Source: an uncultured Planctomycetia bacterium (GTDB lineage: Bacteria > Omnitrophota > Gorgyraeia > Tantalellales > Tantalellaceae). Taken from it: a DNA stretch of 64,000 bases. Shown in pieces: positions 2,617-55,892 of this stretch. Made by a program: the position numbers and the translations under genes. Every line of letters begins with the position of its first letter. Position 1 is the first letter of the stretch. The stretch lies in assembly GCA_964572255.1 (NCBI GenBank), contig CAZNEE010000001.1, positions 459,587-523,586 of the forward strand, read 5' to 3'. A model generated the notes under the pieces. That model saw only the letters and a list, made by a program, of their open reading frames with translations. It was not told where the DNA came from and searched no databases.

Positions 2617-4533
2617 ATGTTCGAATCTATCAAGTTATACACCGGCGAGACAGTTGAGCTGGATGAGATCATCCGGAACCTTGAGCGGTACGACTATAAC
2701 AGGTGCCGGAAAGTCTCGATCGAAGGGGATTACAGCCTTCTCGGAGAGACCCTCATAATTTTTCCCGTCACATTTGAATACCCCGTAAGGATAGATCTTT
2801 CGGACGGCAAGGTAAATTCCATAAAAAGTGTCGATATAGTATCATTCCGCACGATCACGGACCATAAAGGCGTTATCGTTCTTCCCGCGAATATCCTGCG
2901 CCGCACAAAAGTAAAAAAACAGCAGATGGAGCTCGGGGAAAGCCCCATAGATTCTTTTGTGGATATCGAGCCGGGCGATTTTGTTGTCCATATAGATTAC
3001 GGTATAGGAAAATATCTGGGCATGCAGCGCATGCGGCGTGACGGGAAAGTGCAGGATTATTTTGTTATTGAATATGCCGGAGGGGATAAACTGTATGTTG
3101 AGCACGCTGACCTGCATAAACTTCAAAGGTATGTGTCATTTCACAGAAAACCGCATAAGCTCAACAGTCTTAAGGGTAAAAGGTGGCAGAGCGCCAAGAA
3201 CAGGGCGACGAAAGGCGCTGAAAAAATAGCCCGGGATTTTCTGCGCCTGCAGGCGATCAGGGAAAATACAAAAGCCTATGCGTTCAGCAAAGATACCGAC
3301 TGGCAAAAAGAGGTAGAAGATGCCTTCCCGTATAAAGAAACACCGGATCAGATTAAAGCGACCGGGGAAACCAAGCTTGACATGGAAAAGATGCGTCCGA
3401 TGGATAGGCTTCTGTGCGGTGATGTGGGATACGGAAAGACGGAAGTCGCCATGCGCGCGGCATTCAAAGCGGTCATGGATAATAAACAGGTGGCTTTCCT
3501 TGTTCCCACAACCATTTTGGCCGAACAGCACATGGAAACTTTCCAGAAGAGGATGAAGGATTATCCCGTTAACATACAGATGCTGAACCGCTTTAAGACC
3601 CCCTCGGAACAGGAAAAAATAGTCACGGGGGTCAGGGAGGGGAAGATCGATATCGTTATAGGCACGCACCGGCTCCTTTCAGATGATATAAAATTCAAAG
3701 ATCTGGGGCTTCTTATCATCGATGAAGAGCAGAGATTCGGCGTTAAACAAAAAGATAAAATAAAGAGGATGCGTGTTAATGTTGATATCCTTACGCTTAC
3801 TGCCACGCCCATACCCAGAACCCTTTATCTTGCTCTCATGGGGGGCAAAGACATTTCGATGATAGAGACGCCGCCTTTGGAAAGGATACCTGTTCATGCC
3901 AAGGTCATAGAATTTGACAAGAAGGTCATCAAAGAAGCCATCAGGAAGGAATTAGAGAGGAAGGGACAGGTTTATTTTGTGCACAACAGGGTCGAATCGA
4001 TAGACAGAATAGCCTCTGAAGTAAAAGCTCTTGTCCCGGAAGCCAGACTTATGGTGGGGCACGGCCAGATGAGCTCAAAAATGCTTGAAGAAACCATGGT
4101 AAAATTCATTAAAGGAGAAGTGGATATTCTGGTATGCACGACTATCATAGAATTCGGGATAGATATCCCTAATGCGAATACCATGATACTGAATCAGGCG
4201 GACAAGTTCGGTTTAGCGGATCTTTATCAGCTTAAAGGCAGGATAGGAAGATTTGACAGGCAGGCTTTCGCGTATCTCGTTGTCAGGGATTTTGGTTCAT
4301 TGACGGGCGAAGTAAGAAAACGATTGGAGGTTATACAGAAATACCATGAGCTGGGTTCCGGGTTTAAAATAGCCATGCGGGATCTTGAGATGAGAGGAGC
4401 CGGCAATATTCTGGGAATAGAACAGAGCGGCTTCATTGACTCGATCGGTTTTGATCTGTATTGCCGCCTGCTCCGGGAAGAAATCTCAAAGCTCAAGGGG
4501 GACGCCCCATTCGGGGACACCCTACATAGCTAA
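2617..4533 (+). CDS. mfd: Transcription-repair coupling factor Mfd, short form of 638 aa. It has an RNAP-interaction-like region followed by the superfamily 2 (SF2) translocase module. The UvrB-homology N-terminus and the D7 C-terminal domain are absent.
   Basis: The stretch FPYKETPDQIKATGETKLDMEKMRPMDRLLCGDVGYGKTEVAMRAAFKAV...LVPTTILAEQH matches the Mfd translocase module almost residue for residue. The helicase motif QLKGRIGRFDRQAFAYL and the TRG-like region (RDLEMRGAGNILGIEQSGFIDSIGFDLYCRLL) are present. The ORF ends inside a repeat element at 4497-4522. Confidence 0.8.
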   Translation: MFESIKLYTGETVELDEIIRNLERYDYNRCRKVSIEGDYSLLGETLIIFPVTFEYPVRIDLSDGKVNSIKSVDIVSFRTITDHKGVIVLPANILRRTKVKKQQMELGESPIDSFVDIEPGDFVVHIDYGIGKYLGMQRMRRDGKVQDYFVIEYAGGDKLYVEHADLHKLQRYVSFHRKPHKLNSLKGKRWQSAKNRATKGAEKIARDFLRLQAIRENTKAYAFSKDTDWQKEVEDAFPYKETPDQIKATGETKLDMEKMRPMDRLLCGDVGYGKTEVAMRAAFKAVMDNKQVAFLVPTTILAEQHMETFQKRMKDYPVNIQMLNRFKTPSEQEKIVTGVREGKIDIVIGTHRLLSDDIKFKDLGLLIIDEEQRFGVKQKDKIKRMRVNVDILTLTATPIPRTLYLALMGGKDISMIETPPLERIPVHAKVIEFDKKVIKEAIRKELERKGQVYFVHNRVESIDRIASEVKALVPEARLMVGHGQMSSKMLEETMVKFIKGEVDILVCTTIIEFGIDIPNANTMILNQADKFGLADLYQLKGRIGRFDRQAFAYLVVRDFGSLTGEVRKRLEVIQKYHELGSGFKIAMRDLEMRGAGNILGIEQSGFIDSIGFDLYCRLLREEISKLKGDAPFGDTLHS

Positions 4534-4604
4534 CAACATCATAACTTTTACAAAAATTTTATATTTATTTAATCTTATAGGGTGTCCCCGAATGGGGCGT
4601 CCCC
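4497..4604. repeat. MITE-like element, copy 1. It has perfect 25-bp terminal inverted repeats (GGGGACGCCCCATTCGGGGACACCC / GGGTGTCCCCGAATGGGGCGTCCCC) flanking about 57 bp of AT-rich interior.
   Basis: The inverted repeat can be read directly on both arms. The left arm encodes the last residues of Mfd (DAPFGDTLHS-stop). A second copy sits at 42931-43026. Confidence 0.6.
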
Positions 4605-42004: not shown

Positions 42005-42970
42005 GTGAAAATATTAGTTACAGGCGCGACAGGTTTTATCGGTCAAAGATTTGTCGAAAGTATCCTGCCGGAGGGAAATGAGATCTTCTCGCTTGTGAGA
42101 AAAACAAGCAAGGTTGATTTTTTAAAAAAGGCGGGAATTTCTCTCATTACTGCGGATATAGCAGACCGGGAGGAAGTGGAGAAAGTCTTTTCCGAGGTTC
42201 GGCCCGATGTTACGGTGCATTGTTCCGCCAGCGTCACTTCAGGTGATGAAGATGAGCTTTATAAAGCTAATGTGGTCGGAACCGAAAATATTTGCTCTGC
42301 GTGCTTGAAATATTGCACGGATCGCCTTGTATATCTAAGTTCGGTTTCGGTGGTAAGCGGAAATACCGAAACTCCCCTAAGGGATGATATGCCGTATAAA
42401 GCCACAAGCGCTTACGGCCGGTCAAAAATAGAAGCTGAAAAAAAAGTTTTAAGATACAGGGACAAAGGGCTGCGCGCGGTCGTACTCAGGCCGTGCATGG
42501 TTTACGGGGAAGAAGAACCGCATGCACTTGATAAAATACTCCGGAGGGTATCAAAAAGACTGGTTCCGGTGATCTCCATGCCGGGAGTGAAGGACAAGCT
42601 GCATCTGGCATATATTGATAATGTTGTAGATGCGATGCGGCTTGCCATGGGAAAGCCTCAAGCGCTTTCGGGTACGTTTATCATCGCCGACAGGGAGATA
42701 ATATCGATAAGAAAATTTATTGAGATCCTCTCCGATGAGCTTGGCGCGGGAAAACCTTTCGTGATACCGGTTTTTTTAGTTAAGACCGCTCTTATAGTCC
42801 CGTTTATAAGGAAAAAATTCAACAGGATATTTAAAGACAGGATATATGATATAAGCCGGGCAGTTAGCGAGCTTGGCTATGACCCAAAGATCTCGACCGA
42901 AGAGGCTTTAAGAAAAACCGCTCGGTATTGGGGGACGCCCCATTTGGGGACACCCCACAAGGGAGAATAA
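42005..42970 (+). CDS. NAD-dependent epimerase/dehydratase (extended SDR).
   Basis: The Rossmann motif ILVTGATGFIG and a YxxxK catalytic motif are present. The C-terminal residues (WGTPHLGTPHKGE) are encoded by the MITE-like element. Confidence 0.75.
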   Translation: MKILVTGATGFIGQRFVESILPEGNEIFSLVRKTSKVDFLKKAGISLITADIADREEVEKVFSEVRPDVTVHCSASVTSGDEDELYKANVVGTENICSACLKYCTDRLVYLSSVSVVSGNTETPLRDDMPYKATSAYGRSKIEAEKKVLRYRDKGLRAVVLRPCMVYGEEEPHALDKILRRVSKRLVPVISMPGVKDKLHLAYIDNVVDAMRLAMGKPQALSGTFIIADREIISIRKFIEILSDELGAGKPFVIPVFLVKTALIVPFIRKKFNRIFKDRIYDISRAVSELGYDPKISTEEALRKTARYWGTPHLGTPHKGE

Positions 42971-43026
42971 GCATAAAAAATTATACTTGGTTAGCTATAT
43001 GGGGTGTCCCCAAATGGGGCGTCCCC
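42931..43026. repeat. MITE-like element, copy 2. It has perfect 26-bp terminal inverted repeats (GGGGACGCCCCATTTGGGGACACCCC / GGGGTGTCCCCAAATGGGGCGTCCCC).
   Basis: The terminal repeats can be read directly. They match copy 1 except for one position (C versus T at the centre). The interior is the approximate reverse complement of copy 1's interior. Confidence 0.6.
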
Positions 43027-48304: not shown

Positions 48305-49129
48305 ATGGAATTTTTTCTGGGATATTGGGAAACCATACTCGAGATCATTATTCTCTGGGGGGTATATTACGCGATATTCCTGCTCTTAAAAGATACCGCC
48401 GCGGAACAGGTCCTCAAAGGCCTCATCATAATAACCGTGATCGTTATGCTTACCGGCGGGTTGAACCTGGTAGTCATAAACTGGCTTCTTACAAGACTTC
48501 TCGCCATATCCGTTATAGCATTTATTATTATTTTTCATCCTGAGATCAGAAGGGGTCTTGCCAGGATTGGCAGGATGGGCGTCTTTACCGCGGAGAGGGC
48601 TACAATAGACGAGATAACAAAAGCTGCCGGGGTATTGTCCAAGAAAAAGACCGGCGCGCTTATCGCCATCCAGCGGGAAACCGGCCTGAGGCGTTACGTG
48701 GAAAGCGGCGTTAATATAGATGCCGGGGTAACGAGCGAGCTGATAAACACGATATTCATGCCTAACACTCCTTTACATGACGGGGGGATAATTATTGCCG
48801 AGCAGCACATAGAGGCGGCGGCATGCCTATTTCCGTTAACACAGAACCCTAATATCCCGAAAACTACAGGCACAAGGCACAGGGCGGCTATAGGATTGAC
48901 CGAAGAGACCGATGCGATCGTTGTGGTCGTCAGCGAAGAGACCGGTGAGATCTCAGTGGCGGTAGCAGGAAAACTTACAAAAGATATTGACCTAAAAGAA
49001 CTCCCGAAAGTTCTTGAAAAGGCTTTCAGGCCGAAACGGAAGAAAGGGTCTTTTTCCAGGCTGTTAAAAAGTGTTATGGCGAGACGTTTATTCGGGGGAA
49101 TAAAGCTGACCCGAGATAAGGTTTCATGA
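48305..49129 (+). CDS. cdaA: Diadenylate cyclase (c-di-AMP synthase), membrane-anchored CdaA type.
   Basis: Three N-terminal TM helices are followed by a DAC domain (GALIAIQRETGL...LHDGGIII...GTRHRAAIGLTEETDAIVVVVSEETGEIS). Confidence 0.8.
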   Translation: MEFFLGYWETILEIIILWGVYYAIFLLLKDTAAEQVLKGLIIITVIVMLTGGLNLVVINWLLTRLLAISVIAFIIIFHPEIRRGLARIGRMGVFTAERATIDEITKAAGVLSKKKTGALIAIQRETGLRRYVESGVNIDAGVTSELINTIFMPNTPLHDGGIIIAEQHIEAAACLFPLTQNPNIPKTTGTRHRAAIGLTEETDAIVVVVSEETGEISVAVAGKLTKDIDLKELPKVLEKAFRPKRKKGSFSRLLKSVMARRLFGGIKLTRDKVS

Positions 49130-49578
49130 TGAGAATAAAAAACATGATCGTTAATAATTTCTGGTTAAAAGTTTTTTCGCTCATACTTGCGGTAGCGACC
49201 TGGTTTTATGTTTTTGATATCGTGAACAAGGATTCTCATCTTAAAAAGGATGAAACCGCTGAGGAGATCTTCCAGCGCTATAAATACAGCGTGAAAGAGG
49301 TGCCTGTTAAGCCTGTTTTCACGGGAAGAAGCCCCGAGGGATACAGAATAAATTTTGAGAAGGTGAAGATCGAACCCGCAACCATGCATGTTTTCGGCCC
49401 TGAAGAAGTGATCAAAGATGCCGAGGAACTCACAACTGAGCGGATCGACTTGAACGAATATACCCGAAGCTCCCATATTCAGGTGGGGGTGGAGTCAGAT
49501 ATAAAATTCCTGAAATTCGACGAGAAGCTGATCGATGTTTATCTTCCCGTTGAGACCGTTAACGGGGATAAGAAGTAG
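49126..49578 (+). CDS. cdaR: YbbR/CdaR-like protein with a single YbbR-like domain.
   Basis: An N-terminal TM segment, its position immediately after cdaA, and a YbbR-like beta-rich region support the call. Confidence 0.45.
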   Translation: MMRIKNMIVNNFWLKVFSLILAVATWFYVFDIVNKDSHLKKDETAEEIFQRYKYSVKEVPVKPVFTGRSPEGYRINFEKVKIEPATMHVFGPEEVIKDAEELTTERIDLNEYTRSSHIQVGVESDIKFLKFDEKLIDVYLPVETVNGDKK

Positions 49579-51545: not shown

Positions 51546-51619
51546 TAAAAATTTAAATATCTGTAAATAAATAACTTACAAGTCAAACATCCTGCCTTAA
51601 AAAGATAATCCCCAAAGGT

Positions 51620-51648
51620 TTGCCAATCAAGACAAAATATGATATACT
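51620..51648 (+). promoter_or_regulatory. Sigma-70-type promoter (TTGCCA-17 nt-TATACT) for PEP-CTERM gene 1.
   Basis: The -35 hexamer TTGCCA lies at 51620-51625 and the -10 hexamer TATACT at 51643-51648, with exact 17-nt spacing. The same promoter is duplicated at 52856-52884. Confidence 0.45.
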
Positions 51649-51737
51649 TTAGGTGATAGTAAAGTAAGCTCAAACCGGGGAAATATTTTATAAAGGGGCG
51701 CACCATTCGGGAGAATGGGGTGCGAATTGAAATGGAA

Positions 51738-51765
51738 ACCCAACCTTCCAATGGTTGGGTTTTTT
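51738..51765 (+). terminator. Intrinsic-terminator-like hairpin inside the 5' leader of PEP-CTERM gene 1 (attenuator candidate).
   Basis: ACCCAACC-TTCCAAT-GGTTGGGT is followed by TTTTTTGTTTT. It ends 9 nt before the ribosome-binding site AGGAGG (51774-51779). Upstream of it is a second conserved hairpin, GCGCACCATTC...GAATGGGGTGCG (51698-51724). Confidence 0.45.
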
Positions 51766-51787
51766 GTTTTAAAAGGAGGTGAGAAGA

Positions 51788-52420
51788 ATGAAGATGAAAA
51801 TTTTAATGATTTCTTTGATTATGACAATTGCTGTTTGCGGAGCCAGCACAGCGGATGCGGCACAAACGACGTTTGAAAATGAAATATATGATTGGACATC
51901 GTATCCTTTTTACTATGATGGCACCTGGGGTCCTTACCACGATGGCCCGATGACCCCCTTTGAACTTCCGAATAATATCGACCCGAACTATGAGGGGCCT
52001 TTTGATGTGATCCAGTTTTCTTATACGCCCCCGCTTTATGGGGAAATGGTCGAAGTTCTTTTTCATTCCGATGCAGCGACGCTAGTATACATAACCACTG
52101 ATATCACGCTGTACTATTACGGCACCTATACAAATGGCGGGTGGTGGGATTACACCGCGACGTTTGCCGAAGCGACTGACCTTACAGGATCTTCCGCTGT
52201 TTTTGACGGCGCGTTCGATTTTCGTATCGATACGAGCAACGGTCCTCCGGAGGGCGAGAGAACATATTTTGGAACTGGGTACTATTCCGGGCCTAATGCC
52301 GGCGGTACGATCACGTACGAAGCTTCTGGCGGCGGACCTGCACCAGTACCGGAACCGGCAACAATGACAATATTCGGTCTTGGGATATTGGGGTTGGCTG
52401 TAAAGAGGTTTCGTAAATAA
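51788..52420 (+). CDS. PEP-CTERM sorting-domain protein 1 (start moved to ATG at 51788).
   Basis: The signal peptide is MKMKILMISLIMTIAVCGASTADA. The C-terminus VPEPATMTIFGLGILGLAVKRFRK is a canonical PEP-CTERM signal (PEP motif, TM helix, basic tail). Confidence 0.8.
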   Translation: MKMKILMISLIMTIAVCGASTADAAQTTFENEIYDWTSYPFYYDGTWGPYHDGPMTPFELPNNIDPNYEGPFDVIQFSYTPPLYGEMVEVLFHSDAATLVYITTDITLYYYGTYTNGGWWDYTATFAEATDLTGSSAVFDGAFDFRIDTSNGPPEGERTYFGTGYYSGPNAGGTITYEASGGGPAPVPEPATMTIFGLGILGLAVKRFRK

Positions 52421-52422
52421 TA

Positions 52423-52454
52423 GGGACGGTTATAAGAGGAAATAAAACCGTCCC
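52423..52454 (+). terminator. Conserved 3' hairpin immediately after the PEP-CTERM 1 stop codon.
   Basis: GGGACGG-(18-nt loop)-CCGTCCC overlaps the stop codon TAG. Counterpart GGGACG...CGTCCC at 53681-53714 follows PEP-CTERM 2. No T-tract follows, so it may be a stabilising or processing hairpin rather than a terminator. Confidence 0.3.
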
Positions 52455-52855
52455 TAAAGGGCAAAGTTATGCAAGCTTATGTGTTCTTTGTCTTTTTCTT
52501 TTTTAATCCCTTCAGTATTTCATCTCCATTTATTGATAATATGATTCCGAAAGCTTTCTTTGTTCAAATGCTTTTCTTGACGCTTTTTTTCTAACATTTT
52601 GAGGGGTGTTAAATAAACTCCTCGCCCTGTAGGGCTCGTCGAACATATTTAACACTTTTTCCCTCAAAAGTTATAAAAAAAGCTGAAAAGCATGATTCAC
52701 TCAGAAAACTTCCGGAATCATTTCGTAAATGACAGGGGCGATTCTTAATAAGGAAGAAAGTCCCTGTAGGACAACCGGGAAAATTTTTAAGTATTTCAAA
52801 CAAATAACTTACAAATTATTTGATCCTGCCTTAAATTGAAATAATTCCTGAAGGT

Positions 52856-52884
52856 TTGCCGATCAAGACAAAATATGATATACT
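52856..52884 (+). promoter_or_regulatory. Sigma-70-type promoter (TTGCCG-17 nt-TATACT) for PEP-CTERM gene 2; duplicate of 51620-51648.
   Basis: The spacer ATCAAGACAAAATATGA and the -10 hexamer are identical to copy 1. Confidence 0.45.
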
Positions 52885-52973
52885 TTAAGTGATAATAAAG
52901 TAAGCTCGAATCGGGAAAAATATTTTATAAGGGGCGCACCATTCGAAGGAATGGGTAGCTGAAAAATATGTTA

Positions 52974-53002
52974 ACCCAACCTTCCGATGGTTGGGTTTTT
53001 TA
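52974..53002 (+). terminator. Intrinsic-terminator-like hairpin in the leader of PEP-CTERM gene 2 (duplicate attenuator candidate).
   Basis: ACCCAACC-TTCCGAT-GGTTGGGT is followed by TTTTTTATTTT. Only one loop base differs from copy 1. The ribosome-binding site AGGAGG lies at 53012-53017. Confidence 0.45.
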
Positions 53003-53024
53003 TTTTGGAAAGGAGGTGAGAAGA

Positions 53025-53681
53025 ATGAAGAAACTATTAGCAATATTGCTCGTGGCCTTAGTGATGGGCTTATCAATGCCCTCAAGTGCTTTTGCCCAGT
53101 GGCATATTGGAGGTATTGACGAACCTAATCATGGTGTTGCTGATTTCACTGTTCCTAGCATAACAGGTGACCCAGGTGATTCTAACAACGTAGGCCTCGT
53201 ACTTGCGAGCTTTTGGAGCGATGATTATATGCAGCCCGTAACGGGTGTGTATTTGCACCATAGTGTTCACCAAACCCCATTTACGGTACCAACTGGCACC
53301 ACTTTTGCTTTAGCTTTACCAGGCATTGGTGGAACAACCTTTGTTGAGGAAGATGCCAATCAGACTGCAACAGGTGATAATGGTACTAATTTCTTTCTTA
53401 TGGCTGATGTCGGGGATTTCAGTTCTTATTATGTGGGTCCGGTTGGCGACGAAGGTATTCATGTTGGAACACTTATTGCCTATCCGGGTTGGGGTGAGTG
53501 GAGCTTTCCTGATCCTGTTCAACAGACTGACTTGAGTGTAGCTTCGTTGGACTCGTTACCTAGTGACGAAATCTGGTTTAATAGTGGGCTTCCTGAGGCT
53601 GGGGGGGTAATCCCGGAACCCGCAACAATGGCGATTTTAGGCATCGGTATTTTTGGGCTGGCTTTAAAACACCGCAAATAG
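53025..53681 (+). CDS. PEP-CTERM sorting-domain protein 2 (start moved to ATG at 53025).
   Basis: The signal peptide is MKKLLAILLVALVMGLSMPSSAFA. The C-terminus IPEPATMAILGIGIFGLALKHRK is a PEP-CTERM signal. The mature region is unrelated to protein 1. Confidence 0.8.
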   Translation: MKKLLAILLVALVMGLSMPSSAFAQWHIGGIDEPNHGVADFTVPSITGDPGDSNNVGLVLASFWSDDYMQPVTGVYLHHSVHQTPFTVPTGTTFALALPGIGGTTFVEEDANQTATGDNGTNFFLMADVGDFSSYYVGPVGDEGIHVGTLIAYPGWGEWSFPDPVQQTDLSVASLDSLPSDEIWFNSGLPEAGGVIPEPATMAILGIGIFGLALKHRK

Positions 53682-53828
53682 GGACGTTTCCAAAAATAAT
53701 CCCGGAAGCGTCCCTAAGGTCAAAGCCAGACCTGTCCCCATCACGGGGGAGAATTATTTTTGTCTTTTTTTTATACCCTCACCACTTACTTCAAATTCTT
53801 TTTTTAATAAAGATAGTTTTATATTGCT

Positions 53829-54039
53829 CACGGGAAAGATGAGCTTTTGGAGTGAATACGATTTTTAGGCATTTATTTGGTTTTTTAAGGTAAATTACCT
53901 ATTTTTGCAACTGTTTGAGCCGGATGAGCTAATAATATGGAAATGATCAGCGAAGCAGGCGAGTTTTGCAAAACCTTAAAAAGGCAAATAAATGGCGTTA
54001 AGAAAATCGTCTGAACGGGAAAAGCTCATCTTTCCCGTG
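53829..54039. repeat. Roughly 210-bp long palindromic element (MITE-like or structured RNA). A perfect 20-bp terminal inverted repeat, CACGGGAAAGATGAGCTTTT / AAAAGCTCATCTTTCCCGTG, encloses nested complementary segments.
   Basis: The terminal repeats lie at 53829-53848 and 54020-54039. The inner pairs are CATTTATTTG/CAAATAAATG, TTAAGG/CCTTAA and TTTTGCAA/TTGCAAAA. Confidence 0.5.
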
Positions 54040-54130
54040 TACTATAAAAAACTTGACTTATCTCACCTTATAATGTAATCTTTTACTAAGGATGGATAGT
54101 TAACAAAAATGTTAATTATGTATATTTAGC

Positions 54131-54718
54131 ATGGATTACGATAAACTGCAAAAATTAAGAAAGAGGCTGTATTTTTCAGTTGAAGACGCGGCGGAGCTTC
54201 TGGATGTAAAGCGCGCCTCCGCGCGCGTTCTGTGCAATAGGAACGCCAAAAAGGGGATATTTATAAGGATTAAGAAAGACCTTTACGTTCTGGAGCAGAA
54301 TTGGAAGAATTATTCAAGGGAGGGGTTTTTTATGATCTCTAATATCCTGCAGGTCCCTTCGTATATCTCTCTCTTGACCGCCTTATCATATTTTGAAGTG
54401 ACCACCCAGGTCCAGAAAGATTTTTACGAGAATATTTCCCTGAAACGTTCGGTGAATTTTAACGCGAAAGGCGTTACATTCACCTACAGCAAGCTGAACA
54501 AAGCGCTTTATTTCGGTTTCGCGAGGAAGGACAATATATTCATAGCCACGAAGGAAAAGGCGTTTGTTGATGCGGTCTACCTTTATTCATACGGGAAATA
54601 CAGTTTGGATTTCAGCTCGCTGGATCTTAACAAACTGGAGAAGGGGAATTTGAAGAAAATAGTCTCAAAATTCCCCCAAAAAACAAAGGATATAGTAGGT
54701 GAAAAATGCGGGATCTGA
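54131..54718 (+). CDS. AbiEi-like antitoxin / transcriptional regulator (type IV toxin-antitoxin, N-terminal winged-helix).
   Basis: The N-terminus LQKLRKRLYFSVEDAAELLDVKRASARVLCNRNAKKGIFIRIKKDLYVL fits the AbiEi N-terminal domain pattern. The gene overlaps the downstream nucleotidyltransferase gene. Confidence 0.65.
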   Translation: MDYDKLQKLRKRLYFSVEDAAELLDVKRASARVLCNRNAKKGIFIRIKKDLYVLEQNWKNYSREGFFMISNILQVPSYISLLTALSYFEVTTQVQKDFYENISLKRSVNFNAKGVTFTYSKLNKALYFGFARKDNIFIATKEKAFVDAVYLYSYGKYSLDFSSLDLNKLEKGNLKKIVSKFPQKTKDIVGEKCGI

Positions 54719-55374
54719 TCAAGCAGGAACAGTTCGAGTTGGAAGTCCTGGACAAACTGAACAGCGGCAAGCTCCTCCCCAGGCTTGTCTTCGGCGGAGG
54801 GACAATGCTGAGGCTTTGCCATGGGCTTAACAGGTATTCCGTGGATCTTGATTTCTGGATCGATAAAAAGATCGACAAGAAGAAACTGTTCAACGGCCTG
54901 AAAGATCTTTTGTCGCGATCTTACAAGATCAAAGACGCGGCGTATAAATTCAACACGATACTTTTTGAAATACGCTCAGGGTCTTATCCCAGGAGCCTTA
55001 AGATAGAGATAAGGAAGAAAATAAAGAAGGTTGCTACCGAACAGGTGATCGCCTACAGCGGTCATTCCAATATGCAGGTTGTTCTCAGAAGCGTGTCTCT
55101 TGCCGATATGATGAAAGCCAAAATAGAGGCGTTCCTTAACAGGAAAGAAATAAGGGATGCTTTCGACATGGAATTTTTGGTGAAAAAGGGGATCGGACTG
55201 GAAGCGCCGAAAGGCGATCTTGAGAGGCTGCTTAAGAACCTTGATGCGCTTACTAAGAATGATTACGCTGTAAAGCTTGGTTCTCTTTTGGATGAAAGCC
55301 AAAGACGGTATTATGTCAAAGAGAATTTCAAGATCCTCAGGTCAAAGATCCTTGAAAAACTAAAAAAATATTGA
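54706..55374 (+). CDS. AbiEii/AbiGii-family nucleotidyltransferase toxin (DUF1814).
   Basis: The stretch LLPRLVFGGGTMLRLCHGLNRYSVDLDFW has the GGT...R...GxxRxSxDLDF signature of the AbiEii nucleotidyltransferase family. Confidence 0.7.
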   Translation: MRDLIKQEQFELEVLDKLNSGKLLPRLVFGGGTMLRLCHGLNRYSVDLDFWIDKKIDKKKLFNGLKDLLSRSYKIKDAAYKFNTILFEIRSGSYPRSLKIEIRKKIKKVATEQVIAYSGHSNMQVVLRSVSLADMMKAKIEAFLNRKEIRDAFDMEFLVKKGIGLEAPKGDLERLLKNLDALTKNDYAVKLGSLLDESQRRYYVKENFKILRSKILEKLKKY

Positions 55375-55420
55375 CTGTTGCATAAAAATTTTCTTATGAT
55401 ATACTTAACTTTGTTTTACT

Positions 55421-55598: not shown

Positions 55599-55892
55599 AT
55601 GAATATGAAGAGATTGATATGTTCAATTCTACTGGTTTCATTCGCTGTTTTTCTCTCTTTTATCAGTAATGCCGAAGATTATTTGACTGACTCAGGTGAG
55701 GTAAAAGAAGAAATTGATACTGAAGACTATATGACAGATTCCGGCGAGATCAGGCAAAGCGTAGAGGGTGAGTATATGACAGATTCCGGCGAGCTTGAAG
55801 AGGGATATGATGTTTTTCCCCAGCCTGATGTAAGCGGAGAAATAGAGCAGGACCTGCAAGAAGAAGGCCTGAGCGAAGAAGAGGAAGAATAA
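55599..55892 (+). CDS. Small secreted acidic protein with three DYMTDSGE repeats (hypothetical). The start was moved outside tRNA-Tyr.
   Basis: The translation is MNMKRLICSILLVSFAVFLSFISNAEDYLTDSGEVKEEIDTEDYMTDSGEIRQSVEGEYMTDSGELEEGYD...EEGLSEEEEE. It has a signal peptide plus a tandem acidic repeat. Confidence 0.45.
   Translation: MNMKRLICSILLVSFAVFLSFISNAEDYLTDSGEVKEEIDTEDYMTDSGEIRQSVEGEYMTDSGELEEGYDVFPQPDVSGEIEQDLQEEGLSEEEEE

What the first reader, a model, noticed from the sequence alone, without database searches (positions are those of the whole stretch)
51568..53720. Tandem PEP-CTERM cassette: near-identical promoter, leader, signal tail and 3' hairpin around two unrelated mature domains
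Two adjacent genes (51788-52420 and 53025-53681) share about 200 bp of almost identical upstream DNA. The shared region includes the AAATAACTTACAA box, a TTGCCR-17-TATACT promoter, a structured leader and the ribosome-binding site. They also share the C-terminal PEP-CTERM tail plus a GGGACG...CGTCCCTAA(A)GG hairpin that overlaps the stop codon. The roughly 170-aa mature regions have no detectable similarity to each other. Conserved ends with variable middles suggest cassette exchange or recombination-driven diversification of exosortase substrates, rather than simple duplication and divergence. No exosortase gene lies in the window.
Basis: seen in the sequence. Interest (0 to 1): 0.75.

Follow-up and report, generated by a model that had tools for sequence, protein, structure and literature searches.

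The report
PEP-CTERM gene pair with riboswitch-derived leaders
Two neighbouring genes for secreted, cell-surface-sorted proteins share a promoter, a leader that is a cut-down relic of a c-di-GMP riboswitch, a sorting tail and a 3' hairpin, and comparison of strains shows these shared ends being swapped by recombination while the unrelated protein bodies stay in place.

Summary
Genes 51788-52420 and 53025-53681 both carry a Pfam PEP-CTERM tail. About 249 bp upstream of each gene is 83% identical. The protein bodies are no more alike than shuffled sequence, and the stop codon of each gene sits inside a TAGGGACG...CGTCCCTA hairpin.

The "structured leader" is explained. In a sister strain (L005) the ortholog of gene 2 is preceded by a true c-di-GMP-I (GEMM-I) riboswitch (57 bits; Rfam's gathering threshold is 35) followed by the same terminator. 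The window's leaders align along that riboswitch leader but lack the second aptamer hairpin (P3, 46 nt). They fail every Rfam threshold, and their folding favours the terminator by 2-10 kcal/mol. They are most likely riboswitch-derived attenuators that no longer sense the ligand.

Recombination at the shared ends is supported. L005 has a different leader before the same gene 2. L006 has gene 2 (99.9% identical) joined, inside the PEP-CTERM tail, to a unit-1-type tail and hairpin, and it lacks the AbiE island.

No swapping of bodies and no cassette machinery was seen. Shared upstream DNA before diverse PEP-CTERM genes, and c-di-GMP riboswitches before tandem PEP-CTERM genes, are both already described. 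I rate this a new variant of a known kind, of moderate interest.

The parts
51547..51619 (+). Unit 1 upstream conserved block, including the AAATAACTTACAA box (51569-51581)
   Evidence: It is homologous to 52780-52855. The box is found only in the two units. Its function was not tested.
51620..51648 (+). Unit 1 sigma-70-type promoter, TTGCCA-17-TATACT with an extended -10 TG
   Evidence: It matches 10 of 12 consensus positions in the promoter scan and sits at the same position in unit 2. The start of transcription near 51655 is inferred.
51655..51787 (+). Unit 1 leader: 5' hairpin P0 (51659-51691), aptamer-remnant hairpin H1 (51698-51723), intrinsic terminator with U tract (51734-51771), ribosome-binding site AAAGGAGGTGA (51772-51782)
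   Evidence: It folds at -39.3 kcal/mol, z -3.8. The terminator was found. H1 gives a weak partial match to c-di-GMP-I-GGC (19.1 bits; the threshold is 59). The leader is collinear with the L005 riboswitch leader.
51788..52420 (+). Gene 1, a 210-aa PEP-CTERM protein: signal peptide (51788-51859), orphan body, PEP-CTERM tail (52343-52420)
   Evidence: Pfam PF07589 scores 30.4 bits. The only relatives found are the protein itself and an 82%-identical strain variant. dN/dS is 0.25 against L005.
52421..52456 (+). Unit 1 hairpin overlapping the stop codon, TAGGGACGGTT...AACCGTCCCTA
   Evidence: It folds at -17.9 kcal/mol, z -5.8. It was found as an inverted repeat. Its 11 pairs are kept in 4 sequences, one through changes on both sides.
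52484..52505 (+). T-rich tract downstream of unit 1 (TTTGTCTTTTTCTTTTTT). It is shared with unit 2 and L005 and is a possible end of transcription.
   Evidence: It is aligned. No stem directly precedes it, so its function is inferred.
52780..52855 (+). Unit 2 upstream conserved block, including the AAATAACTTACAA box (52802-52814)
52856..52884 (+). Unit 2 promoter, TTGCCG-17-TATACT with an extended -10 TG
52891..53024 (+). Unit 2 leader: P0 (52895-52928), H1 remnant (52933-52960), terminator with U tract (52973-53003), ribosome-binding site (53009-53019)
   Evidence: It folds at -35.9 kcal/mol, z -3.4. The terminator was found. Against the L005 riboswitch leader it lacks 46 nt (P3) and three further stretches of 13, 12 and 52 nt. 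It gives no c-di-GMP match in Rfam even at E up to 10.
53025..53681 (+). Gene 2, a 218-aa PEP-CTERM protein: signal peptide (53025-53096), orphan body, tail (53607-53681). The recombination breakpoint seen in L006 lies at about 53632.
   Evidence: Pfam PF07589 scores 27.4 bits. It has no relatives beyond strain variants. The chimeric tail in L006 is shown.
53679..53716 (+). Unit 2 hairpin overlapping the stop codon, TAGGGACGTTTCC...GGAAGCGTCCCTA
   Evidence: It folds at -21.8 kcal/mol, z -6.3.
53735..53773 (+). Small hairpin (TCCCCATCACGGGGG) followed by a T-rich tract. It is the probable terminator of unit 2.
   Evidence: It is a terminator-like site. Its function is inferred.

Best explanation
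These are two paralogous single-gene transcription units for PEP-CTERM (exosortase-substrate) proteins.

Each unit has a sigma-70 promoter and a leader of about 135 nt. The leader descends from a c-di-GMP-I (GEMM-I) riboswitch leader that has lost the second aptamer hairpin (P3) and the ligand pocket. It keeps a 5' hairpin, the first aptamer hairpin (H1), the intrinsic terminator and the ribosome-binding site. After the leader come a signal peptide, an orphan body of about 170 aa, the PEP-CTERM sorting tail, and a hairpin that contains the stop codon.

In the intact relative (L005, before gene 2), the loop and 3' arm of H1 can instead pair with the 5' arm of the terminator. That fold and the terminator fold have equal energy. 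I infer that bound ligand holds H1 closed and causes termination, which would make it an OFF switch.

In the window's leaders H1 sits next to the terminator, and in unit 1 extra base pairs close the former ligand-binding loop. The terminator fold therefore wins. The leaders most likely act as ligand-independent attenuators behind a strong promoter. This step is inferred, not shown.

The shared ends stay similar for two reasons. They are functional modules, and homologous recombination or gene conversion between paralogous units moves them. Sister strains carry a different leader, or a different tail with a different downstream island, on the same gene body.
For: PEP-CTERM identity
- Both genes match PF07589 above its cut-off.
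- Gene 1 is under purifying selection: dS 0.36, dN/dS 0.25.

Origin of the leader
- L005:949-1035 scores 57.1 bits on RF01051 c-di-GMP-I, whose threshold is 35. It lies before the gene-2 ortholog.
- That riboswitch is followed by a terminator 92% identical to the window's and by an identical ribosome-binding site.
- Upstream of the terminator the window leaders are collinear with it through P0 and H1. The alignment score was reached by 0 of 1000 shuffles for unit 1 and 9 of 1000 for unit 2.
- A gapped alignment shows unit 2's leader equals the riboswitch leader minus 46 nt of P3 and three shorter stretches. Aligned columns are 87% identical.
- H1 of unit 1 aligns to the first hairpin of the c-di-GMP-I-GGC model.

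Loss of sensing
- No Rfam family reaches its threshold on either leader.
- The junction nucleotides AAA/GAC are replaced.
- The H1 loop is GGGA, GAAG or GGAG in the three leaders, so it is no longer a conserved GNRA tetraloop.
- The H1 3' arm and linker differ at 8 of 27 positions between orthologs, close to the synonymous rate of 0.285. The terminator differs at only 3 of 36, two of them compensatory.

Energetics
- Terminator and antiterminator folds are -44.9 and -45.5 kcal/mol in the true riboswitch.
- The terminator is favoured by 7.8, 2.1 and 10.3 kcal/mol in the three truncated leaders.
- Antiterminator complementarity is strong only in the true riboswitch (0 of 2000 shuffles) and in unit 2 (p 0.0135).

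Recombination
- L005 shows the leader replaced and L006 shows a chimeric tail with its breakpoint at about 53632.

Literature
- PEP-CTERM genes are typically single-gene operons with large upstream regions that share DNA, and their bodies are diverse (PMC1569441).
- Three adjacent PEP-CTERM genes about 1 kb apart each have an annotated c-di-GMP riboswitch in Methylophaga GP59 (PMC12530212).
- c-di-GMP is read by G20 and C92 of the aptamer (PMC6140456). The strand that carries C92 is missing here.
Against: - Only three truncated leaders from very close strains are available, so conservation and covariation statistics are weak.
- The 5' arm of H1 is invariant, and the P0 hairpin, terminator and ribosome-binding site are conserved well below the synonymous rate. 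The leader is therefore not simply decaying and may keep a regulated function.
- Unit 2's two folds differ by only 2.1 kcal/mol.
- Gene 1 is under purifying selection, so it must be expressed despite a favoured terminator.
- The Rfam similarity to c-di-GMP-I is weak for unit 1 (19 bits) and absent for unit 2. The link rests mainly on one sister-strain contig.
- No transcript data exist.
- The role of the 3' hairpin is unknown.
- The rest of the genome could not be searched for an exosortase or for more units.
Confidence: 0.68

Rival explanations
1. The short leader is still a working regulated switch. It could be a new minimal variant that senses a ligand. It could instead be bound by a protein or small RNA that tips the balance between H1 plus terminator and the antiterminator.
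For: - P0, the 5' arm of H1, the terminator and the ribosome-binding site are conserved well below the synonymous rate.
- Unit 2's two folds differ by only 2.1 kcal/mol, and its antiterminator complementarity is significant (p 0.0135).
- Gene 1 is under purifying selection, so some read-through must occur.
- The leader module persisted in, or was copied to, a second gene.
Against: - P3 and the 3' strand that carries C92 are missing.
- The loop and junction nucleotides are not conserved among the three copies.
- The H1 3' arm changes at the neutral rate, and pairs are broken in L005.
- No Rfam family reaches its threshold.
- No further copies turned up in the genome or metagenome scans.
Confidence: 0.2
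2. A dedicated cassette-exchange system, like an integron or a shufflon, swaps protein bodies between fixed 5' and 3' adaptor sequences to diversify surface proteins.
For: - The ends are conserved around unrelated bodies.
- Mosaic junctions between strains lie exactly at the edges of the conserved segments.
- Contigs from two independent assemblies end at 53044, just inside gene 2, and a third starts at 53056.
Against: - The same bodies sit in the same order in all strains seen. Only the flanks differ.
- No integrase, invertase or recombinase was found among the window's genes.
- Each unit has its own promoter and terminator.
- The repeats are direct, and the shared ends already have ordinary functions.
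- Look-ups of gene 2 and of AbiEii found no other contexts.
Confidence: 0.06
3. This is a plain tandem duplication followed by very fast divergence of the bodies. Selection alone, without recombination, keeps the flanks alike.
For: The units are adjacent, in the same orientation and of similar length. PEP-CTERM proteins are known to be highly diverse (PMC1569441).
Against: - The bodies are at shuffle-level DNA identity (47.9% against 47.8%) and give 0.1% hhalign probability. Meanwhile about 250 bp of non-coding flank keeps 80-83% identity, including positions that vary freely between orthologs.
- The replaced leader in L005 and the chimeric tail in L006 are direct evidence of exchange.
Confidence: 0.06

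Closest known systems
c-di-GMP-I (GEMM-I) riboswitch, Rfam RF01051, with an intrinsic-terminator expression platform. An example is Bc2 before the collagen-adhesin gene of Bacillus thuringiensis (PMC4933901).
   Same: The leader sits before a secreted or surface protein gene. It has the first aptamer hairpin (ACCAUUCG..GAAUGGG), a terminator directly before the ribosome-binding site, and H1/terminator complementarity. The orthologous gene in strain L005 has a bona fide member (57.1 bits).
   Different: The window leaders lack P3 (46 nt), the tetraloop-receptor contact, the conserved junction nucleotides and the strand that carries C92. They score 19 bits or nothing in Rfam, and the terminator fold is favoured by 2-10 kcal/mol.
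PEP-CTERM/exosortase (EpsH) protein-sorting system with cis-regulatory DNA shared among paralogs (Haft et al. 2006, PMC1569441)
   Same: The genes are single-gene operons with upstream regions longer than 200 nt. They have a signal peptide, diverse bodies with no known homologs, and a PEP motif followed by a membrane helix and a basic tail. Upstream DNA is shared among paralogs.
   Different: The shared upstream DNA is a sigma-70 promoter with a riboswitch-derived leader, not the proteobacterial PrsR/sigma-54 site. No exosortase could be located, because only the window was available. A conserved hairpin overlapping the stop codon is not part of the published description.
Tandem PEP-CTERM genes, each preceded by an annotated c-di-GMP riboswitch, in Methylophaga nitratireducenticrescens GP59 (PMC12530212, Table 4)
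   Same: The PEP-CTERM genes are adjacent, about 1 kb apart, and each has its own cyclic-dinucleotide riboswitch-type leader.
   Different: There the riboswitches are annotated as intact. Here both copies in the window are truncated, and only the sister strain keeps an intact one.
Integron gene cassettes (attC/IntI)
   Same: Short conserved ends flank unrelated coding bodies in a tandem array.
   Different: There is no integrase and no attC-type site. Each unit has its own promoter. The 3' hairpin has a perfect stem of 11-13 bp that includes the stop codon. The exchanges seen fit ordinary homologous recombination.
REP/BIME-type intergenic palindromes at gene 3' ends
   Same: The element is a G+C-rich hairpin right after, or overlapping, the stop codon, without a U tract. 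The same outer GGGACG/CGTCCC hexamers occur in two longer palindromes at other gene ends in the window.
   Different: Only four instances were seen in 64 kb. The PEP-CTERM hairpins continue the homology of the tail and vary with it. No RAYT-type transposase was seen.

Membership tests
PEP-CTERM proteins (PF07589 / exosortase substrates) | A C-terminal PEP motif followed by a hydrophobic helix and a basic cluster at the very end of the protein | tested here: met
   PF07589 scores 30.4 and 27.4 bits against a cut-off of 20.7. The tails are VPEPATMTIFGLGILGLAVKRFRK and IPEPATMAILGIGIFGLALKHRK.
PEP-CTERM proteins (PF07589 / exosortase substrates) | An N-terminal signal peptide | tested here: met
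   This was judged by inspection only. MKMKILMISLIMTIAVCGASTADA|AQ and MKKLLAILLVALVMGLSMPSSAFA|QW each show a basic start, a hydrophobic core and an A-x-A site. No predictor was run.
PEP-CTERM proteins (PF07589 / exosortase substrates) | An exosortase (EpsH/Xrt) gene in the same genome | not testable with these tools
   None was found among the 47 window proteins surveyed with Pfam.
c-di-GMP-I riboswitch (RF01051 and its variants) | A covariance-model score at or above Rfam's gathering threshold | tested here: not met
   Unit 1's best match is c-di-GMP-I-GGC at 19.1 bits against a threshold of 59. Unit 2 gives no c-di-GMP match at E up to 10. The whole-window scan found none. The sister-strain leader L005:949-1035 does pass, at 57.1 bits against 35.
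c-di-GMP-I riboswitch (RF01051 and its variants) | Two aptamer hairpins, with a GNRA loop on the first docking into the second (P3) | tested here: not met
   P3 is absent: 46 nt are missing relative to L005. The H1 loops are GGGA, GAAG and GGAG.
c-di-GMP-I riboswitch (RF01051 and its variants) | The ligand-contacting nucleotides G20, A47 and C92 (PMC6140456) | tested here: not met
   A G is present at the position equivalent to G20. The junction AAA/GAC is replaced by GCA/GGU or GUA, and the 3' strand that carries C92 is missing.
c-di-GMP-I riboswitch (RF01051 and its variants) | Binding of c-di-GMP or cGAMP | not testable with these tools
   This needs in-line probing, ITC or transcription assays.
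Intrinsic terminator / transcription attenuator in a 5' leader | A G+C-rich stem followed by a U tract, between the promoter and the ribosome-binding site | tested here: met
   Stems at 51734-51764 and 52973-52997 are each followed by TTTTTT. The stem is kept in L005 through a C-G to U-A double change.
Intrinsic terminator / transcription attenuator in a 5' leader | A competing antiterminator fold | tested here: inconclusive
   One is present and equal in energy in the true riboswitch. The terminator is favoured by 2.1 kcal/mol in unit 2, 7.8 in unit 1 and 10.3 in L005 unit 1. Duplex significance is 0/2000, 0.0135, 0.165 and 0.18.
Integron-type gene cassettes | attC recombination sites, a linked tyrosine integrase, and cassettes without their own promoter | tested here: not met
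   No integrase or recombinase domain was found in the window survey. Each unit has its own promoter and leader.

The most novel reading that the evidence does not exclude
The P3-less leader is not a fossil. It is a new, mobile regulatory module made of promoter, 5' hairpin, half an aptamer and a terminator. Either it responds to a signal other than direct c-di-GMP binding, such as a protein or small-RNA antiterminator, or its abundant terminated transcript of about 115 nt acts in trans as a riboswitch-derived small RNA. Recombination then spreads it, together with the tail and hairpin, among exosortase substrates to rewire their control.
Probability: 0.15. Interest if true: 0.65.

Novelty: new variant of a known kind. 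Interest (0 to 1): 0.4.

Why it matters
If the reading holds, this locus is a natural before-and-after pair for riboswitch loss. The same surface-protein gene is preceded by an intact cyclic-dinucleotide riboswitch in one strain. In a sister strain it is preceded by a version that has lost its second hairpin and whose former ligand-dependent hairpin is partly locked by base pairs. That gives a concrete, testable case of how riboswitch control is converted into ligand-independent attenuation or handed over to another regulator.

The locus also shows that the conserved regulatory and sorting ends of PEP-CTERM genes act as portable homology. Recombination at these ends reshuffles control regions, and in one case it exchanged a segment that includes an AbiE toxin-antitoxin island. 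The general pattern of shared flanks, diverse bodies and c-di-GMP riboswitches before PEP-CTERM genes is already known, so the advance is incremental.

Tried and rejected
- Rfam at gathering thresholds found only tRNAs in the window.
- An exact-pattern scan for the leader in genome contigs found nothing.
- The same kind of scan in metagenome contigs gave two hits, both chance matches inside coding sequences for a transporter and a penicillin-binding protein. No further copies of the leader were obtained.
- AlphaFold2 models of both proteins were made without alignments and were unusable (pLDDT 34 and 33). No fold search was run, so remote structural homology of the two bodies remains untested.
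- A full HMMER scan with the body of gene 1 gave only two weak repeat-motif hits in unrelated large proteins.
- PDB sequence searches gave nothing below E 0.1.
- A tail-only protein search meant to find paralogs failed. The first query was too short, and the second found no candidate sharing enough words.
- Attenuation by a leader peptide was rejected. The small ORFs inside the leaders (ATG at 51715, ATG at 52968) are not conserved between units or strains.
- I looked for covariation supporting an antiterminator in the short leaders. There is one possible compensatory change in L005, but duplex energies are not significant for the unit-1-type leaders.
- Look-ups of AbiEii and gene 2 found only the same arrangement.
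- Syntenic loci of the nearest species in the genome collection (at most 53% identity for the neighbouring Carb_kinase gene, unclassified MAGs) hold no PEP-CTERM gene, no GGGACG hairpin and no riboswitch.
- An integron-like reading was rejected for lack of an integrase or attC sites.


Full report
**1. The observation**

The region holds two + strand ORFs, 51788-52420 (210 aa) and 53025-53681 (218 aa). Both match Pfam PF07589 PEP-CTERM above its cut-off, at 30.4 and 27.4 bits against 20.7. Both start with a typical signal peptide, judged by inspection.

A nucleotide alignment and BLASTN show that 51552-51794 and 52786-53031 are 83.1% identical over 249 nt. Identity by segment is:

| Segment | Identity | Shuffled mean |
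|---|---|---|
| Box and promoter | 79.8% | 49% |
| Leader | 82.8% | 46.5% |
| Signal peptide | 51.3% | 45.6% |
| Body | 47.9% | 47.8% |
| Tail | 66.7% | 45.2% |
| Hairpin | 66.7% | 42.9% |

The bodies are therefore no more alike than shuffled sequence. BLASTP aligns only the tail, and hhalign on the mature regions gives 0.1% probability.

The promoters TTGCCR-17-TATACT, each with a TG extended -10, lie at 51620-51648 and 52856-52884. The hairpins TAGGGACG...CGTCCCTA at 52421-52456 and 53679-53716 contain the stop codons. They are far more stable than shuffles, with z -5.8 and -6.3.

No exosortase was found among the 47 window proteins surveyed with Pfam. The neighbourhood is housekeeping: folP, a DAC/YbbR pair, pdxJ, acpS and a Carb_kinase gene upstream, and a tRNA cluster downstream.

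**2. What the leader is**

Each leader folds into a 5' hairpin (P0) and a second hairpin (H1: GCGCACCAUUC-loop-GAAUGGGGUGCG). It then forms a canonical intrinsic terminator (AACCCAACCUUCC.AUGGUUGGGUUUUUU) that ends 1-5 nt before the ribosome-binding site AAAGGAGGTGA.

Rfam finds no family at gathering thresholds. At permissive thresholds, unit 1's H1 aligns to the first hairpin of c-di-GMP-I-GGC, but at only 19.1 bits against a threshold of 59. Unit 2 shows no such match.

The key came from other strains. Both proteins are orphans, known only from this lineage. Their close variants lie on two short metagenome contigs:

- **L005:** gene 1 is 82% identical at the protein level and gene 2 is 94% identical at the nucleotide level. 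It has the same short leader before gene 1. Before gene 2 it has a different promoter and a bona fide c-di-GMP-I riboswitch (RF01051, 57.1 bits, threshold 35; L005:949-1035). The same terminator and an identical ribosome-binding site follow.
- **Collinearity with that riboswitch leader:** upstream of the terminator, the window leaders follow it through P0 and H1. The local alignment score was reached by 0 of 1000 shuffles for unit 1 and 9 of 1000 for unit 2.
- **What is missing:** a gapped alignment shows that unit 2's leader equals the riboswitch leader minus 46 nt, which is essentially the P3 hairpin. Three further stretches of 13, 12 and 52 nt are also missing. Aligned columns are 87% identical.

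The leader is therefore a P3-less derivative of a GEMM-I leader.

**3. Does it still sense?**

Published structures show c-di-GMP read by G20 and C92 at the junction of the aptamer helices (PMC6140456). In the window leaders:

- P3 and the 3' strand that carries C92 are gone.
- The junction nucleotides AAA/GAC are replaced.
- The H1 loop is GGGA, GAAG or GGAG in the three available copies, so it is no longer a constrained GNRA loop.

Between the orthologous unit-1 leaders of the window and L005, the H1 loop, 3' arm and linker differ at 8 of 27 positions. That is close to the synonymous rate of the adjacent gene (pS 0.285, dS 0.36). The H1 5' arm differs at 0 of 14 positions. The terminator differs at 3 of 36, and two of those form a compensatory C-G to U-A change.

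Thermodynamic folding shows how the intact switch probably works. In L005's riboswitch leader, the loop and 3' arm of H1 (GAAAGGAUGGG) pair with the terminator's 5' arm (CCCAACCUUUC).

| Leader | Fold energies or terminator advantage | Antiterminator complementarity vs shuffles |
|---|---|---|
| L005 gene-2 riboswitch | antiterminator -45.5, terminator -44.9 kcal/mol | 0 of 2000 |
| Window unit 2 | terminator favoured by 2.1 kcal/mol | p 0.0135 |
| Window unit 1 | terminator favoured by 7.8 kcal/mol | p 0.165 |
| L005 unit 1 | terminator favoured by 10.3 kcal/mol | p 0.18 |

I infer that ligand-stabilised H1 lets the terminator form, which would make the intact element an OFF switch. In unit 1 the former ligand-binding internal loop is closed by base pairs.

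The best reading is a riboswitch-derived attenuator that is largely locked in the terminating fold and no longer reads the ligand directly. The step from structure to function is inferred. Conservation of P0, the H1 5' arm and the terminator, together with purifying selection on gene 1 (dN/dS 0.25), means a residual or new regulated function cannot be excluded.

**4. Recombination at the shared ends**

Four other contigs (L001-L004) are identical or nearly identical to the window. Two strains differ:

- **L005:** it differs in the leader of gene 2, as described above. Homology to the window resumes at 53008, the ribosome-binding site.
- **L006:** it matches the window at 99.9% from 52612 to 53632. 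Inside the PEP-CTERM tail (...GCAACAATGGC|AATATTCGG...) it switches to a unit-1-type tail and hairpin, 91% identical to 52349-52456. It rejoins the window at 55375, so it lacks tail 2, hairpin 2, a 240-nt palindrome and the AbiEi/AbiEii pair.
- **Assembly artefact is unlikely for L006:** the exact matches between the two tails are much shorter than assembly k-mers, and L006's tail is not identical to the window's unit-1 tail.

The conserved ends therefore do act as crossover points. What moves in the events seen is the flank, not the body. Gene order and gene bodies are the same in all strains, and look-ups of gene 2 and AbiEii gave no other contexts. No recombinase is nearby.

**5. The 3' hairpin**

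Its 11 outer pairs (UAGGGACGNUU/AANCGUCCCUA) are kept in four sequences, one pair through changes on both sides. Unit 2 extends the stem with different inner pairs. No U tract follows directly.

A T-rich tract shared by the units lies 30-50 nt downstream. In unit 2 a small hairpin precedes it, making a terminator-like site. Since the leader terminator shows that this organism uses canonical U-tract terminators, the stop-codon hairpin is more likely a 3' stabiliser, a processing site or a protein-binding site than the terminator itself. This is inference only.

The same outer hexamers, GGGACG and CGTCCC, close two long palindromes at other gene ends in the window. This hints at a genome-wide family of 3' hairpins.

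**6. Comparison with what is known**

- Haft et al. (PMC1569441) described PEP-CTERM genes as mostly single-gene operons with upstream regions longer than 200 nt. They have a signal peptide, highly diverse bodies, and in Proteobacteria a shared upstream DNA motif (a sigma-54/PrsR site).
- In Methylophaga GP59, three adjacent PEP-CTERM genes about 1 kb apart each carry an annotated c-di-GMP riboswitch (PMC12530212).
- Shared flanks, diverse bodies and cyclic-dinucleotide riboswitch control of tandem PEP-CTERM genes are therefore not new.
- Three things are new here: the naturally truncated riboswitch present in two copies, its intact counterpart on the same gene in a sister strain, and the mapped recombination junctions in leader and tail.
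- By Rfam score and by architecture, the window leaders are not members of the c-di-GMP-I family. They are derived from it.

**7. Limits**

- The organism is an unclassified lineage. Its nearest genome-collection relatives share at most 53% identity for the neighbouring gene, and they lack the locus.
- Collection scans for more leaders found none.
- Structure prediction failed.
- The comparative sample is three short leaders and one intact riboswitch.

**8. Verdict**

The finding is real and is now largely explained: an ordinary PEP-CTERM gene pair whose shared ends are a riboswitch-derived attenuator module and a sorting-tail/hairpin module, reshuffled by homologous recombination. It is a new variant of a known kind, of moderate interest (0.4).

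Noticed in passing
window 4497-4604 and 42930-43026: Two long inverted repeats, GGGGGACGCCCCATT(C/T)GGGGACACCC ... GGGTGTCCCC(G/A)AATGGGGCGTCCCC, have arms about 50 nt apart. Each straddles the 3' end of a + strand gene: the helicase/TRCF-like ORF 2617-4533 and the epimerase ORF 42005-42970. Their outer GGGACG/CGTCCC hexamers are the same as in the PEP-CTERM 3' hairpins. They may belong to a genome-wide family of REP-like 3' hairpins.
   Followed up: partly
window 52532-52730 and 53815-54053: Two imperfect palindromes of about 200-240 nt lie just downstream of each unit and are unrelated to each other. The first falls in a stretch that has no counterpart in L005, and the second lies in the segment missing from L006. 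They look like insertion polymorphisms, possibly MITE-like. Their only Rfam hits are spurious matches to microRNA precursor families.
   Followed up: partly
window 54131-55374: An AbiEi-like and AbiEii (PF08843) toxin-antitoxin pair lies between unit 2 and the tRNA cluster. It is absent in strain L006, where gene 2 is followed directly by the tRNA promoter. The left junction of this strain-variable segment lies inside the PEP-CTERM tail.
   Followed up: partly
window 56151-64000 (runs off the end): A giant + strand ORF of at least 2,616 aa has a low-molecular-weight phosphotyrosine phosphatase domain (PF01451) at residues 190-303 and no other Pfam match.
   Followed up: no
L005:949-1035: The intact c-di-GMP-I riboswitch of the sister strain has an A where the Rfam consensus has the G that corresponds to Vc2 G20 (consensus aGGC, sequence UAGU). 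That is the substitution typical of cGAMP-sensing or bispecific GEMM-Ib riboswitches (PMC6140456). The truncated leaders have G at that position.
   Followed up: partly
window about 55605-55892, between tRNA-Tyr and tRNA-Gly: A small ORF has a signal-peptide-like start and a very acidic body with repeats of the form Y(L/M)TDSGE(V/I/L). It sits inside the tRNA-Thr/Tyr/Gly cluster and is also called as a gene in L006.
   Followed up: no
window 53044-53056: Contigs from two independent assemblies (L003, L004) end at 53044, and another from one of the same samples (L017) starts at 53056, just inside gene 2. This suggests co-existing strain variants at this point in natural populations.
   Followed up: partly
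window 48305-49578: A diadenylate cyclase (DAC) gene and its YbbR partner lie about 2 kb upstream of the PEP-CTERM units. A c-di-AMP synthase therefore sits close to genes with leaders derived from a cyclic-dinucleotide riboswitch. This is probably coincidental.
   Followed up: no
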